41,475 nt of DNA from Shigella phage SfII, in sequence record NC_021857.1, one strand, 5' to 3'. Each line of letters starts with the position of its first letter. Within the stretch, counting starts at the first letter, position 1. Below are positions 18,001 through 24,000 of this stretch, one piece after another. The position numbers are program-made.

Positions 18001-21000
18001 AAACCCGAGTGGCCTATGCATCCAAATAAATAGACTTGTTAATCTAGGATAATTGTTGGAATAATACTCATTTTTCAGTAGGTTCAGGTAGCCTGGGTAT
18101 AATGCTCACTTCTACAATGATTTCAACTTATTTTATTTAATTGATATTACGAAACTTAACTCATACATAAACAATATGACCCAATACTGTCCTAAATAGC
18201 TGCGCAGAAAAGTGCTCCACTTTCGCTCAGCCCTTGCTGGGCGAAGCATCAGGAAGGCGTTCTCAGCTAGGTTGTGTTATATCTGGCTTGAGTTTTGTTG
18301 CCCATACGCAACACATTACCCATCTGTAAACGACAAGTGTGGCAGAATTAGGTGCAGCTATTTAGACTATATCGACGCAGTAACGATAATAGATATCGAA
18401 ACTGTACTAGATATTAGCTACTTATGGTTGCCGGGGGGAGTCTTTTGAGCACTGGTGTTATCAATCGGCTTCAAATAATTCACCAATAAATTATATTGCG
18501 ATAGCTCATCACCTTCCAGGTTGTTTATAGCCAGTTTATCAGCGTCACCACCTACTGTTTATGCTTTTATTTCTTTGATTAATAAGTATATGATATTTTA
18601 ATTCATCTGGTGTATTTCTTTCTCATGTGTTGGTCGACTGAATATCTGTTCAGTGAAGGGGTAATTTTATGTTTGCACTTCGAACATTCCCTTCAGTTGC
18701 TAGGAAAGAAAACCGTAACATTTGCGCATTAATTTTAACAGTATAATCTGAGCATAAATATGCGCTATATATCTATAAAAAGGCGCAATTAATTGCGCCT
18801 TTTTATCATTTTATCAAAAATGGCCCACCGACTGTCCTCGATAGCCAATGGCCAATTTTATCTGATACATATACACAAATACAGGTATATATGATTGAGC
18901 AGATAGGATTTGGAATAGTCACGCTGAAGCCTATAATTGCTAAAGCCATAGGGATAAATAATTTGGTGATATACTCCATTCCACATATGTTAAGAGTATT
19001 TCTTCCAGCTCTTACAATAAAGTCATTTCCACAAATTATTTTTGCTATGAAAATATTAAAGATTATCAAGCCTACCGTGGTGATAATAGTATTAATAGCT
19101 TGAATATAACTACTTGATATTATGTCTGCATTGAATATTGAGATAATCTTAAAAAGTAAAGGTTTCTGGTTAAGTAGTTGATACGCACTCATTATAGCGG
19201 TAATTGAGAAGACAATGAAACCAATTTTAGATTTTCCAAAAAACCTGTCACGTGTTAATTCTAAAAACATACATCTACCGAGAGGCAATAACCACCAGTA
19301 TGCCATAGCGGAGTCTATGTTCCAAAACCATTGAGGATCTAGTAATGGGTTATGATTGAGCACTGTTTGTGACAACATGAACGATAACAGTGATATGATT
19401 AAAATCACTATATTGTTCTTGACTATTTCTCTAAAGATTGCATCAATTGCTATTATAACAAAAAGGCAGTTTATAAACCATATTGTTCCTACGAATTGGT
19501 TATTTCTAACACCATATATTATATCATAAATGTGGTTGTATATATAATCAATCGTCTCACCTGAGTTAATTGTGTTTATTATTAATATAGAAAATGCAAA
19601 AGTGAAATATGGAATCATTAATCTGTAAAACTTTGACTTGATATAATCGAAAATAGATAAGTCATTTTTTTTGATAGTAAAAAAACCAGCAGCGAAAAAG
19701 AATAGTGGGACGTGATAACTAAAAACAAAAGGATACAATTTGCCAGCCCCCAACCCAAGGTGACCTAAATATATAGCAAAAATACCGAGAAATTTTAAAG
19801 CATCAACCCAATCATGTCTTATTTTTCTGTTGCTGTCGATTTTGTTATTATACATTTAAAGTAGGCTCTCCAGTTTTGTGTGATTTTTAAACACTCATTG
19901 CAAATATGAATGCCTGAAAGTTTATGATTATTAATCAACGAGTTCAATATTAATTTATTATTTTTCAAAGTCGCACTATATAGGCATTTACTTCCGCAGT
20001 ACCACCGATAGTATCGATATCAAATCAGCCTGCGGCCGCGATAACTTTCGTAACATTCTGCCAGCGGCTTTGTTGAATAAATCAGGTTCAAGATAATCGT
20101 CTCTGCATCAGGTTAGAGTTTCAGGCAATACATCCTCTTTCTGGCATACCTGCCACTCTAGCACCATGGTCATAGCCTTTACGATCTGCATACTCACCAG
20201 ACCAGAGCCCGATCCATTTTAGGATGAGGAATCCCCAGAAAAGAAGACAGGCAGAGGGAGGCTTGTGATCTAATGATTGCGCTAACAAATTCAATGAGAT
20301 CACCTCTATGCCTGCCCGTAAAGTATGCCAGACTTTTTTCCGTAATGCTTTAGCTTCCACGCATCAGTATCGACAAAATGCCATTATTGATTCTGCTGCT
20401 GCTTTAGTCGGTGGCGCATCTCTTTCTCTTACCAGCATTGGCCGGCATTTACCCGGTCCTGCTCGCGTGAAAGATAAAATAAAACGCGTTGACCGTCTGT
20501 TGGGTAATAAACGACTTCATAATGATATCCCTCTGATATTCAAAAATATTACATCCATGATGACAAATAAACTGTCGTGGTGTGTTATCGCTGTTGACTG
20601 GAGCGGTTACCCTTTTCAGGAATATCATGTCCTTCGTGCCAGCCTCCTCTGCGACGGTCGCTCTATCCCCCTGATGAGTCAGGTCTTCCCGTCAAAAAAA
20701 AATAACGAGGCGGTGGAAATCGCTTTTCTGGATGCGCTTTCCGGGGCCATTTCTCCCCGGACTCGTGTTGTTATTGTTACTGATGCTGGTTTTCAAAGTG
20801 CATGGTTCCGTCATATCAAATCACAGGGATGGGATTTTATTGGTCGTATCAGGGGGGTAGTGAAGTTCAGGCTGGATAGTGACAAAGATAAGTGGCTGGA
20901 CATAAAAATGTGCAGGGGGAGTTCAGAGGCAAAATACCTGGAGACGGGAACCCTGGCCCGGAAAAAACGCTCGCAGTGTGAAGGACATTTTTATCTTTAT

Positions 21001-24000
21001 AAACATTCACCTAAAGGCAGAAAAAGCAGGCGTGCCAGAGGGAGGCCGGGCTTACCAACAACGGAAAAAGAACAAAAAGCCGCAGGCAGAGAACCATGGT
21101 TAATATTCAGCAATACAGCTGAGTTTAATGCCAAAAAAATCATGAAACTGTACAGTCGAAGAATGCAGATAGAGCAAAACTTTCGGGATGAAAAAAGTGA
21201 ACGCTTTGGTTTTGGCCTTCGGGCGAGCAGAAGTCGGAGGGGAGAGCGTTTTCTGGTATTAAGTCTACTGGTTACACTGGCCAGTATCGTACTCTGGCTA
21301 CTTGGTTATCATTTTGAAAATAAAGGATTTCATTTAAAGTATCAGGCTAATAGTCTCAAAAAACGAAGAGTATTGTCTTTTCTGACGCTGGCTGAAAACG
21401 TCCTGAGATTTAACCCTGAACTTCTACGACGAGCACAACCTGAAAAGATATTGTGCCGGTTGGCCAGCACTTACCGAAGTATGGTGCTGGCTTACTGATG
21501 AAAATTTTCTGGGGATCCCTCAGCCTTTCGGGGAGGAATGAGGGCTCTGATATTCTTTTGCCGTAGTTCATCGTGAAACCGTCGGATGTCATTTGGCCTG
21601 AGTGACCCATGCCTCCCAAAAGCAGAGTCGCTAGTGTTATGTAATTAGGCGGTTAAACTTCAATTCTCAGTGTTAAGTTTGGGTAAACGCTTGTAAATGG
21701 TATTGCTAATTTTTTAATTGACTAATATTAGAAACGGTTAGTGTGATTGTATATAGATATTTGAGTGTAAGGTATTTAAAGGGGCATTCAGCCCCTCCGT
21801 CTATTTGTGATTGCATCCATTGATGTGTGTATTATTTTGAGCTTGAAAAAGGGAGGCGCTCTTTAATAATAAATAAATCTATCAAAGCTAAATATTAAAT
21901 GGAAGCCACCCTTTTTTCTCTGATAGTTTTATTATCACCAAACCATTTATTTCAGCTATCGAATCTGGATTCGGCCAGGAAGGTAAACTCTTCACAATTG
22001 GATAAATCTTCTCTATTTGTTCTTTATTTGCTGGTTTGCAATTACAGATTTCATAGTAATTCATAAATGCAACCATCCTAAAATAGTTGCCACCATCCCA
22101 CCAAAAAAAAGATTTTCCAAAAGTGTCTGCGCTCATGGAGAGCATATTTCCTGAGTCGTTTGAACCATGTATATATATATATTTTCCGTTAAGGGAAATG
22201 CCTTTTGTTTGAGATGTGTATGATATTTCTTTAGCTAAAGAGATATCTTTCTGTCTTGCGAGAGTATCATTCAAAAATAGATTTTTGGATGTTGAAACGC
22301 CATTAAATATAATAAATAAAAAAAACATGCAGTTTAGGTATTTTATAGAGCGAAAATTGCTTAAGCAAGAAAACAAAATTACTGCTACTATAGGCATTAA
22401 AACAAACAGGCGAGGTGGCGCCCCTGAGCCAACAACAACGATAAATATAACCGGAAGTATATAAATGAAAATGATTGATGAAATCAAATAAATTGATCTT
22501 GTTTTTAATTTATATGTTAGGGTAAATATCAGAATTAATAAAGGAATCAGTAACCACTTGTATAGGTTTAAACCAGTGGGAGGATTGTTATAGAAGTTAT
22601 ATATATTATCTATGGCTGATTTAACAAGCCATTTAATATCGCTTGCATTTTGTATATAATTTGAGATGTACTCGTTCGATTCAAGCGAAAAATAATGCTT
22701 GATAGCTTTGGTTAATAGCAGGTAAATTAAGGTAGATAAAGCTATGAGGGATAGAGATAAACATGAACTATAAAAAGATTCACGAATATTTTTCTCATTT
22801 CGTATTATCGAATTTATCTGCAACCCAATGACGAATGCAATAATATATGTTACGAATGTTTGGTAGATTGCCATTGAAAGAATGGACAGTACTATACCAG
22901 AAAATATCACAATCCTATTTTTTTGCGAGTGAAAAATAATTGCTGATATCGCTGCCAGTAGAAAAGCAATTCCCACAGTATCAGCTTGGTTAAGAAACTC
23001 TAATTGATAGGAGATCTGAGGGAAGGTAATAAATACTAACATACCTATCAATAATTCATAAGATTCTAGCTTTAGCGATCTGCAGATTATAAATGCTGAA
23101 ATGATGATAAAAGATAAGGCTATTAATGGTGTTATATAAAGTGAAAAAGGCTCAGGGAGAAAGTAATGTCGCAAAAAAGTGTGAAACCACCGCCCAAGCG
23201 TGATTGTTTGATAAAAATTATTTGTAAACTCGCCATCAATATTAAGTGTTCCATCGTACAACCACCCCCAATAACAATAAATTGATATTGCAAAACATGA
23301 TATGAAGGCAAGGAGATTTGCATTTTTAAATAAATTAATTTTAATCATGGGTTACCTCGATGAGATTTTTTTATGATGTATTTGGGTCTATTTTTTACTT
23401 CAATATAGATTCTACCTATATATTCTCCGAGAACACCAATCCCGATCAGTTGCACTCCACCCAAGAAAAGTATTGATACAAGCAGGGAGGGATACCCGCG
23501 TACTGGGTTACCAAAGACAAGGGTGTCTATAATCATCCATGCACCATATAAAAATGAAATGCTTGCAACAAACAAGCCTATATAAGTCCATACGCGAAGA
23601 GGAAAGGTTGAAAAACTTGTGATACCTTCCAGTGCCAGATTCCATAATTTCCAGCCATTAAATTTTGAGATGCCAGCAACACGCTCTGCGCGTACATATT
23701 CCACGACATCCGTCTGACCACCCACCCAGCTCAGTATGCCTTTCATGAAAAGATTGCGCTCAGGCAACAGTTTAATGTTCTCCACAACCTCACGAGACAT
23801 GAGTCGAAAATCTCCGACATTTTCCTCGATCTTTGGGGTGCTTATTTTGTTGTGTAATTTATAGAACCACTCAGCTGTCTTACGTTTCAGTCGTCCATCA
23901 GTTGAGCGGTCTGAACGTTTAGCAAGCACCATGTCAGCACCTGCCTGCCACTTTTCAATAAGATGAGGGATAACCTCAATTGGGTCTTGCAGGTCGACAT

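What the first reader, a model, noticed from the sequence alone, without database searches (positions are those of the whole stretch)
20224..21523. Complete IS10-family element inside the cargo region, without an obvious target-site duplication
The transposase ORF looks intact and is bounded by IS10-like terminal inverted repeats, but I could not find the 9-bp direct repeat expected for IS10-type insertion; the flanks read CCATTTTAGG and CCTTTCGGGG. The upstream flank (about 19990-20223) is higher in GC and may be a remnant of a disrupted gene. This suggests IS-mediated rearrangement or deletion rather than simple insertion, possibly related to how the acyltransferase was acquired.
Basis: seen in the sequence. 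Interest (0 to 1): 0.35.

Follow-up and report, generated by a model that had tools for sequence, protein, structure and literature searches.

The report
ISSfl9 insertion with decayed target duplication

Summary
Window 20224-21523 is a complete 1.3-kb IS4-family, IS10-like element that NCBI annotation names ISSfl9. It has 19-bp terminal inverted repeats, an intact 396-aa DDE transposase and no perfect flanking direct repeat.

The interpretation (rearrangement or deletion) does not hold. Eight E. coli prophages carry the same oacD-side and gtr-side flanks joined without the IS. The two flanks overlap there by exactly 9 bp (CCTTTCGGG), so this was a simple insertion with a 9-bp duplication.
- The right copy is perfect.
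- The left copy reads CCTTTTAGG (7/9) in seven sibling Shigella/E. coli copies.
- The left copy reads CATTTTAGG (6/9) in this window.

The window also carries ten unique differences packed into 20160-20273. They include the first IS base. They are most likely Sanger errors in the SfII record, or else local mutation.

The GC-richer flank is indeed a gene remnant. It is the 3' end of an IS903-like (IS5-family) element, and it continues on the other side of ISSfl9. This remnant, not ISSfl9, marks the boundary of the acyltransferase (oacD) module.

In passing: ISSfl9 relatives insert into the loops of short CCCC...GGGG hairpins.

Low novelty.

The parts
20224..21523 (+). ISSfl9, an IS4-family IS10-like insertion sequence. 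It is 1300 bp here and 1298 bp in sibling copies.
   Evidence: It is 99.2% identical to E. coli copies that PGAP annotates as 'IS4-like element ISSfl9 family transposase'. Independent copies share the same ends.
20224..20242 (+). Left terminal inverted repeat, ATGAGGAATCCCCAGAAAA. All other copies start with C.
   Evidence: It is homologous to the IS10 outside end CTGATGAATCCCC.
21505..21523 (-). Right terminal inverted repeat. Its reverse complement reads CTGAGGGATCCCCAGAAAA, and it contains a GATC site at 21514.
   Evidence: It matches the IS10 inside end CTGAGAGATCCCC, GATC included.
20308..21498 (+). Transposase gene, 396 aa. Catalytic residues are D97, D159 and E289, with the Y-2-R-3-E-6-K motif at 282-296.
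   Evidence: It is 34% identical to IS10 transposase, E 2e-66.
20248..20312 (+). Leader hairpin that pairs CAGGCAUAGAG with CUCUAUGCCUG, which includes the AUG. It is weakened in the window copy.
   Evidence: The block is invariant among relatives of 70-75% overall identity (alignment A1). It folds at -27.7 kcal/mol (z -6.0) on the sense strand and -37.1 (z -7.3) on the antisense strand in the consensus copy, against -22.2 (z -1.7) in the window.
20215..20223 (.). Left copy of the 9-bp target-site duplication, decayed. It reads CATTTTAGG here and CCTTTTAGG in sibling copies. The target was CCTTTCGGG.
21524..21532 (.). Right copy of the 9-bp target-site duplication, CCTTTCGGG, identical to the empty site.
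20066..20223 (-). IS903-like (IS5-family) remnant, left part. It holds the terminal inverted repeat GGCTTTGTTGAATAAATCAG (20066-20085) and the 3' end of the transposase gene.
   Evidence: It is 76% identical to IS903B from that element's first base. PGAP annotates the pseudogene in empty-site genomes.
21524..21601 (-). IS903-like remnant, right part. It is truncated at about 21601, where homology to the E. coli oacD module ends.
   Evidence: It is 100% identical to the empty-site genomes over 78 bp and 78-80% identical to IS903B.
20160..20273 (.). Cluster of ten differences unique to this window: five C-to-A changes, T-to-G, a GG insertion and TT-to-GC. It spans the left junction.
   Evidence: Of 16 window-unique differences in 17806-23995, ten fall in these 114 bp. 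The Poisson probability is about 1e-16.
18806..19855 (-). Context: the acyltransferase gene (Acyl_transf_3), SfII_25, most likely the oacD gene of the literature. Its start codon lies 368 bp from the IS left end.
   Evidence: SfII_25 is listed as an acyltransferase (PMC3772137). oacD is said to be carried by SfII (PMC8973906; PMC9558356). That SfII_25 and oacD are the same gene is inferred: it is the only acyltransferase the SfII announcement lists.
21888..23348 (-). Context: gtrII, the serotype-specific glucosyltransferase, convergent with the transposase gene.
   Evidence: It is 100% identical to AF021347.

Best explanation
An ISSfl9 element inserted by ordinary cut-and-paste transposition into a 9-bp target, CCTTTCGGG. 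ISSfl9 belongs to the IS4 family, in the same subfamily as IS10. The target lay inside the remnant of an older IS903-like element, which sits between the acyltransferase gene oacD and the 3' end of gtrII in the O-antigen-modification cargo of phage SfII.

The insertion made a normal 9-bp duplication.
- The right copy is intact.
- The left copy changed at two adjacent positions (CG to TA) before the Shigella and E. coli prophage copies diverged.
- In this record the left copy differs at one more position. That change is part of a dense patch of record-specific differences across the left junction, most likely Sanger base-calling errors.

Shown: the identity of the element, its ends, the empty site, the 9-bp overlap, and the ancestral state of the target.

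Inferred: the two changes are post-insertion mutations; the window-specific patch is sequencing error; the element is regulated like IS10, through Dam sites and a leader hairpin or antisense RNA.
For: **Identity**
- PGAP names the element ISSfl9.
- The best NCBIfam model is NF033591, as for IS10.
- The transposase is 34% identical to IS10 transposase, E 2e-66.
- D97, D159, E289 and the YREK motif are present.
- The first 13 bp of each end match IS10 at 11-12 positions.

**Empty site**
- Eight E. coli genomes hold window 19960-20219 and 21524-21601 adjacent to each other.
- L005 reads gagcccgctCCCTTTCGGGGaggaatgaggg.
- The flanks overlap by 9 bp.
- IS903B is colinear across the site and also has TTTCGGGG there, so CG is ancestral.

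**Same insertion in siblings**
- Two S. flexneri-type chromosomes, three E. coli chromosomes and two IMG/VR contigs carry it, all with CCTTTTAGG | IS | CCTTTCGGG.

**Duplication length**
- A 74%-identical relative in Pseudescherichia vulneris has a perfect 9-bp duplication, CCTTTTAGG.
- An IS10 control analysed the same way gave a perfect 9-bp GGCCAAGCT.

**Record quality**
- SfII was sequenced by Sanger primer walking on cloned PstI fragments.
- Ten of the 16 record-unique differences lie in 114 bp.
- They hit a leader block that is invariant in all 12 relatives.
Against: - Two adjacent transitions in one 9-mer are unusual for random decay.
- The 167 bp left of the IS are 5.4% diverged from the empty-site allele. 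The background is 1.2%, and the right side shows 0 differences in 78 bp (P about 2e-4). Something more than uniform drift happened on the left side.
- One close relative (L018) shows a 7-bp duplication. Another (L016) shows 7/9 with both differences in the central three positions. The family's duplication is therefore not always a clean 9-mer.
- I could not check the raw SfII traces, so sequencing error is a judgement.
Confidence: 0.88

Rival explanations
1. The IS is flanked by unrelated sequences because an IS-mediated adjacent deletion, or recombination between two IS copies, removed one duplication copy and some neighbouring DNA.
For: There is no perfect direct repeat in the window. One independent copy, on an E. 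fergusonii plasmid (L004), really is chimeric: its left flank is traT and its right flank is not. Such events therefore do occur in this family.
Against: The flanks are contiguous, with a 9-bp overlap, in eight empty-site genomes. They are also colinear with IS903B. Each genome has only one ISSfl9 copy.
Confidence: 0.03
2. The insertion happened in a diverged allele of the IS903-like remnant whose target was CCTTTTAGG, giving a perfect duplication. Later recombination or gene conversion with an IS-free prophage replaced the right flank up to the IS boundary. That produced today's CCTTTCGGG copy and the mosaic divergence.
For: The left 167 bp are 5.4% diverged from the empty-site allele, the right 78 bp are 0% diverged, and the background is 1.2%. 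CCTTTTAGG fits the family's preferred CCT-NNN-AGG target better and is the exact duplication seen in P. vulneris.
Against: IS903B has CG at these positions, so CG is the ancestral state. A conversion tract ending exactly at the IS boundary is needed. No allele with uninterrupted CCTTTTAGG was seen in 5,426 E. coli genomes.
Confidence: 0.06
3. The element carried 3-4 bp of donor flank (TAGG or AGG) at its left end. The true duplication here would then be shorter: 5 bp CCTTT, or 3 bp with AGG/CCT as part of the ends.
For: The BLAST overlap of exactly matching flanks is 5 bp. AGG precedes the left end in 7 of 11 independent junctions, and CCT follows the right end in 3 of 5.
Against: The ends align base for base with IS10 from the terminal C of CTGA. 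L018 has TGG and CTT at these positions and a direct repeat that abuts CTGAGG...CTCAG. The C-run and G-run further out are present in the empty site, so the AGG/CCT pattern reflects target preference and is not part of the element.
Confidence: 0.03

Closest known systems
ISSfl9 (IS4 family), as named by NCBI PGAP from ISfinder
   Same: It is 99.2% identical in nucleotides over the full length to copies annotated 'IS4-like element ISSfl9 family transposase'. Those copies sit in the same prophage position in E. coli and S. flexneri.
   Different: The window copy has A instead of C as its first base and a 7-position variant patch in the otherwise invariant leader. The E. coli copies are frameshifted, whereas this one and the S. 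flexneri copies are intact.
IS10 (IS10R / ISVsa5), the module of Tn10
   Same: - Similar size: 1298-1300 bp against 1329 bp.
- A single transposase of about 400 aa with the best NCBIfam model in common (NF033591).
- DDE and YREK residues at near-identical positions.
- Ends CTGAnnnATCCCC.
- A GATC site in one end only, plus GATC sites in the leader.
- A 9-bp duplication and a symmetric preferred target.

   Different: - Only 34% protein identity.
- No Rfam RNA-OUT match.
- The target consensus is C-run, 3-5 nt, G-run (core CCT-NNN-AGG), not NGCTNAGCN. The IS10 consensus is from my own knowledge.
- The duplication was 7 bp in one relative.
IS903B (IS5 family), the relative of the disrupted host element
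   Same: The flanks of ISSfl9 are 76-80% identical to IS903B. They include its terminal repeat GGCTTTGTTGAATAAATCAG and are colinear across the insertion point.
   Different: Only about 227 bp remain. There is an internal deletion relative to IS903B, and the remnant is truncated at window 21601. It is a dead fragment.
IS186 (IS4 family) and its target preference
   Same: It is another IS4-family element that prefers a G/C-run palindromic target and makes duplications of variable length. This is from my own knowledge (saiSree et al. 2001) and was not tested here.
   Different: The IS186 consensus is GGGG-N6/7-CCCC. Here the polarity is CCCC-N3-5-GGGG.

Membership tests
IS4 family, IS10-like subgroup | DDE transposase with the DDE_Tnp_1 domain and the Y-2-R-3-E-6-K signature | tested here: met
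   Pfam PF01609 scores E 3e-19. D97, D159, E289 and YSRRMQIEQNFRDEK at 282-296 are present. NF033591 scores 363 bits against a cut-off of 152, and it is also the top model for IS10 transposase at 401 bits.
IS4 family, IS10-like subgroup | Significant full-length similarity to IS10 transposase | tested here: met
   34% identity over 357 aa, E 2e-66, against an E. coli IS10/ISVsa5 copy.
IS4 family, IS10-like subgroup | Terminal inverted repeats beginning 5'-CTGA and resembling the IS10 ends | tested here: met
   The ends read CTGAGGAATCCCC and CTGAGGGATCCCC, against CTGATGAATCCCC and CTGAGAGATCCCC in IS10. In the window the first base reads A.
IS4 family, IS10-like subgroup | 9-bp target-site duplication | tested here: met
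   The flanks overlap by 9 bp on the empty site, with 7/9 conserved in siblings and 6/9 in the window. A relative has a perfect 9-bp duplication. Caveat: L018 shows 7 bp.
IS4 family, IS10-like subgroup | Cut-and-paste transposition through hairpin intermediates, with antisense RNA and Dam control | not testable with these tools
   There are only indirect hints. GATC sites occur only at 20267, 20298 and 21514. There is a strong leader and antisense hairpin. There is no RNA-OUT hit in Rfam.
ISSfl9 (named element) | At least 95% nucleotide identity over the full length to the reference element | tested here: inconclusive
   It is 99.2% identical to copies that PGAP labels ISSfl9 family. The ISfinder reference sequence itself was not available.
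IS903 group of the IS5 family (the disrupted host element) | IS903-type terminal repeat and colinear similarity to the transposase gene | tested here: met
   GGCTTTGTTGAATAAATCAG lies at 20066-20085 and aligns with the first base of IS903B. Identity is 76-80% on both sides of the insertion. It is only a fragment and not a functional member.

The most novel reading that the evidence does not exclude
ISSfl9-group elements are hairpin-loop seekers. They insert almost exclusively into the loop of short C-run/G-run palindromes (CCC(C)-N3-5-GGG(G)), often beside terminators of prophage cargo genes such as O-antigen acyltransferases. The loop positions of the resulting duplication, and the DNA next to the left end, are then unusually mutable. 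Two of four complete copies differ only in or next to the loop positions, the left flank is 5.4% diverged against a 1.2% background, and this record has a 10-difference patch there. If the SfII patch is real and not sequencing error, it would point to error-prone repair at a repeatedly nicked IS end.
Probability: 0.25. Interest if true: 0.4.

Novelty: already known. Interest (0 to 1): 0.15.

Why it matters
It matters little. The transposase is already annotated in the SfII genome (SfII_26) and the element already has a name.

The useful outcomes are practical.
- The lack of a clean duplication is not evidence of a rearrangement.
- The oacD cassette was not brought in by this IS. Its boundary is an older IS903-like scar.
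- The SfII reference record probably has a low-quality patch at 20160-20273. The patch alters the first base of the IS and its conserved leader, so anyone using this record to judge whether the IS is mobile should re-sequence it.
- The hairpin-loop target preference of ISSfl9 relatives is a small addition to IS4-family biology, and it can be tested.

Tried and rejected
- **Perfect repeat at shifted boundaries.** I scanned +/-12 bp on both sides for repeat lengths 3-12. The only perfect repeats lie inside the inverted repeats, for example GAGGAAT at 20226-20232 and 21533-21539. They are incompatible with the ends shared by all copies.
- **Extended ends (AGG...CCT) with a 3-bp duplication.** Rejected because of L018, the IS10 end homology, and the presence of the C/G runs in the empty site.
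- **Phage collection.** It contains no full SfII record. Only the 4-kb AF021347 is there, and it starts 11 bp inside the right end. The left junction could not be cross-checked against an independent SfII sequence.
- **Rfam.** No RNA-OUT or any other family matched in the IS, in either the window copy or the consensus copy.
- **Literature.** The term 'ISSfl9' is in no held paper. Sun et al. 2014 (the oacD paper) is not held.
- **E. fergusonii plasmid copy (L004).** I hoped it would serve as an independent duplication test, but it is chimeric: traT on the left only.
- **Empty site for the L018 insertion in E. coli genomes.** None was found. The search did show that its right flank is an acyltransferase gene and its left flank a repeated IS end.
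- **Gene conversion from the nearby IS903B as the cause of the left-flank divergence.** The differing positions match IS903B in both lineages (3 against 2), so there is no clear direction.
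Full report
**What the window is.** The window is 41,475 bp long. It is 100% identical to the partial Shigella phage SfII record AF021347 over 21513-24700. The SfII genome announcement gives exactly 41,475 bp. It lists SfII_25 (acyltransferase), SfII_26 (transposase) and SfII_27 (gtrII) as SfII-specific genes. It states that the genome was obtained by Sanger sequencing of cloned PstI fragments with primer walking (PMC3772137). The acyltransferase is most likely the oacD gene of the literature. Papers say SfII carries oacD (PMC8973906, PMC9558356), and SfII_25 is the only acyltransferase the announcement lists. 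The finding therefore concerns an element that is already annotated.

**Checking the observation.**
- The sequence at 20224-21523 is bounded by inverted repeats at 20224-20242 and 21505-21523. They match 17/19 here and 18/19 in sibling copies.
- It contains one long ORF, 20308-21498, of 396 aa. The ORF hits Pfam DDE_Tnp_1 and NCBIfam NF033591 'IS4 family transposase' at 363 bits.
- It has D97, D159, E289 and the Y-2-R-3-E-6-K signature at 282-296.
- A scan of every boundary within +/-12 bp and repeat lengths 3-12 found no perfect direct repeat compatible with the inverted repeats.
- The left flank 19990-20223 is 47% GC, against 28-31% for the neighbouring oacD region.

**Identity of the element.**
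- Megablast finds 99.2%-identical full-length copies in three E. coli chromosomes, annotated by PGAP as 'IS4-like element ISSfl9 family transposase'.
- Further copies are in S. flexneri SFBU1023, a second Shigella-like chromosome, and two IMG/VR contigs.
- All of these sit in the same place: acyltransferase, then IS, then gtrII-gtrB-gtrA. They are therefore the same insertion event.
- I fetched a bona fide IS10 copy (annotated ISVsa5) for comparison. The transposases are 34% identical over 357 aa, E 2e-66. Both have NF033591 as their best model.
- The ends are clearly homologous: IS10 has CTGATGAATCCCC and CTGAGAGATCCCC, ISSfl9 has CTGAGGAATCCCC and CTGAGGGATCCCC.
- That IS10 copy showed a perfect 9-bp duplication, GGCCAAGCT, when analysed in the same way. 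This validates the procedure.

**The empty site.**
- The left flank (19960-20223) and the right flank (21524-21887) were searched separately against 5,426 complete E. coli genomes.
- Besides the three IS-bearing genomes, eight genomes hold both flanks next to each other. PGAP annotates a partial 'IS5/IS1182 family transposase' pseudogene there.
- In strain AR_0061 (locus L005) the sequence reads ...ccagagcccgctCCCTTTCGGGGaggaatgagggctctgat....
- The window's left flank aligns up to the IS boundary, and its right flank starts 9 bp earlier. The flanks thus overlap by exactly CCTTTCGGG. This is the signature of a simple insertion with a 9-bp duplication. No DNA is missing and none is added.
- An intact IS903B that happens to lie 1 kb away in L005 is colinear with this sequence across the site...CCAGTAACCCGCACCTTTTCGGGGAGGGATAAG.... 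The uninterrupted sequence is therefore the original state, and CG at duplication positions 6-7 is ancestral.

**State of the duplication.**
- The right copy is perfect in all copies.
- The left copy reads CCTTTTAGG in all seven sibling copies (7/9; chance about 0.001). It differs from the target by the adjacent changes C-to-T and G-to-A.
- In the window it reads CATTTTAGG.
- The extra change belongs to a striking patch. Across 17806-23995 the window has 16 differences not shared by any of the seven siblings. Ten of them fall in 20160-20273. The Poisson probability is about 1e-16.
- The patch includes the first base of the IS (C-to-A). It also includes seven positions in a leader block that is invariant in all 12 other copies I aligned, among them relatives of only 70-75% overall identity (alignment A1).
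- Three things point to sequencing error: the Sanger primer-walking origin of the record, the error-like spectrum (five C-to-A changes and a 2-base insertion), and the location in a hairpin-forming region. I therefore judge sequencing error more likely than real mutation, but I cannot prove it.

**What the flanks are.**
- The GC-richer left flank is the end of an IS903-like element.
- The IS903 terminal repeat GGCTTTGTTGAATAAATCAG lies at 20066-20085 and aligns with the first base of IS903B. Similarity of 76-80% continues on both sides of ISSfl9, up to 21601.
The disrupted gene is another transposase gene, and it had already been truncated before ISSfl9 arrived.

**Relation to the acyltransferase.**
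- SfI and SfIV share the tail genes with SfII up to about 18014 and resume at about 23376 in gtrB.
- The E. coli prophage in L005 shares 18026-20223 plus 21524-21601 with SfII. This is oacD plus the IS903-like remnant, without ISSfl9. It carries a different serotype-specific gtr gene.
- The oacD module therefore existed without ISSfl9. Its gtr-side boundary coincides with the truncated end of the IS903-like remnant.
- If an IS helped to assemble this cargo, it was the IS903-like one.

**How the element probably works.**
- By homology it is a cut-and-paste DDE transposon of the IS10 type. This is inferred, not tested.
- The IS has only three GATC sites. One is in the right end, at the same position as the Dam site in the IS10 inside end. 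Two are in the arms of a leader hairpin.
- In the consensus copy that hairpin pairs CAGGCAUAGAG with CUCUAUGCCUG, which includes the start codon. It folds at -27.7 kcal/mol with z -6.0.
- The antisense strand folds even better, at -37.1 kcal/mol with z -7.3.
- The window copy is weakened, at -22.2 kcal/mol with z -1.7.
- This fits IS10-like protection against read-through activation, or antisense control. There is no covariation to test it, because the block is invariant, and there is no Rfam match.
- ISSfl9 is single-copy in every genome that has it. It is frameshifted in the E. coli copies by a 1-bp loss in an A-run at 20694.

**Target preference, seen in passing.**
- Eleven independent junctions were collected from plasmids, chromosomes and metagenomes. 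Nine fit CCC-N2-6-(A/G)GG immediately outside the IS end, against 0.14% of background positions. The binomial P is about 1e-24.
- The known uninterrupted targets are small palindromes: CCCTTTCGGGG here and CCCTGAAAGGG in traT. The target reconstructed for L016 is a perfect 19-bp palindrome.
- A P. vulneris relative has a perfect 9-bp duplication, CCTTTTAGG.
- L016 has CCCTTCGGG and CCCGTAGGG, 7/9, with both differences in the central triplet.
- L018 has a 7-bp duplication, CTTATGG.
- The family thus appears to insert into the loop of C-run/G-run hairpins. The duplication is nominally 9 bp, but not always clean.

**Unexplained.**
- The 167 bp left of the IS are 5.4% diverged from the empty-site allele, against a 1.2% background and 0 of 78 on the right.
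- Using IS903B as an outgroup, three of these changes fall in the empty-site lineage and two in the SfII lineage. This is not simply IS-associated damage, and it may reflect an old recombination patch.
- That keeps alive, at low probability, the rival in which the original target was CCTTTTAGG in a diverged allele.

**Verdict.** This is a known, ordinary IS: a simple insertion whose duplication is present but decayed.

Noticed in passing
L014 1276-3229; L027 2916-3648; L018 1534-2929; window 18806-21523: ISSfl9-like elements lie next to three different AT3-type acyltransferase genes: oacD in SfII, another in an E. coli prophage (L014/L027), and an acyltransferase ORF of at least 449 aa on a metagenome contig (L018), whose DNA matches an E. 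coli gene annotated 'acyltransferase family protein'. L013, L014 and L018 share a 48-bp flank made of a terminator hairpin plus a CCCCCC-loop-GGGG hairpin. It is joined to the left IS end in two cases and to the right end in one.
   Followed up: partly
window 20160-20273: A dense patch of ten differences unique to this record spans the left junction, the first IS base and the conserved leader. It is probably a low-quality stretch in the Sanger-derived SfII record.
   Followed up: partly
window 20057-20223 against L005 3098-3264: The IS903-like DNA left of the IS is 5.4% diverged from the empty-site allele. The background is 1.2%, and the right side has 0 differences in 78 bp. This may be an old recombination or conversion patch.
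   Followed up: partly
window 18775-18806: A perfect 32-bp palindrome, ataaaaaggcgcaattaattgcgcctttttat, abuts the oacD stop codon. It looks like a bidirectional terminator between the tail-fibre assembly gene and oacD.
   Followed up: no
window 20248-20312 (L006 2443-2507): A 62-nt leader is invariant among IS relatives of only 70-75% identity. It forms a strong hairpin on both strands that covers the transposase start codon, with a GATC site in each arm. It could be a fold-back or antisense regulator. There is no Rfam match.
   Followed up: partly
window 20694 (L001-L003): The E. coli copies of this IS have lost one A from a run of A's, which frameshifts the transposase. The SfII and S. flexneri copies are intact.
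   Followed up: yes
L005 781-2896: In the E. coli prophages that serve as the empty site, the oacD homologue is itself interrupted by an intact IS903B. The type-specific gtr gene there is a DUF6056-family protein and not GtrII.
   Followed up: no
L015 2500-2638 and hits H15-H26: Solo 95-140-bp left-end remnants of an ISSfl9-like element occur unannotated in several E. coli chromosomes. In the one locus fetched (L015, hit H15) the remnant lies next to type VI secretion genes.
   Followed up: no
window 20226-20232 and 21533-21539: The 7-mer GAGGAAT occurs both inside the left inverted repeat and in the right flank, which is part of the IS903-like target. It is a coincidental resemblance and not a duplication.
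   Followed up: yes
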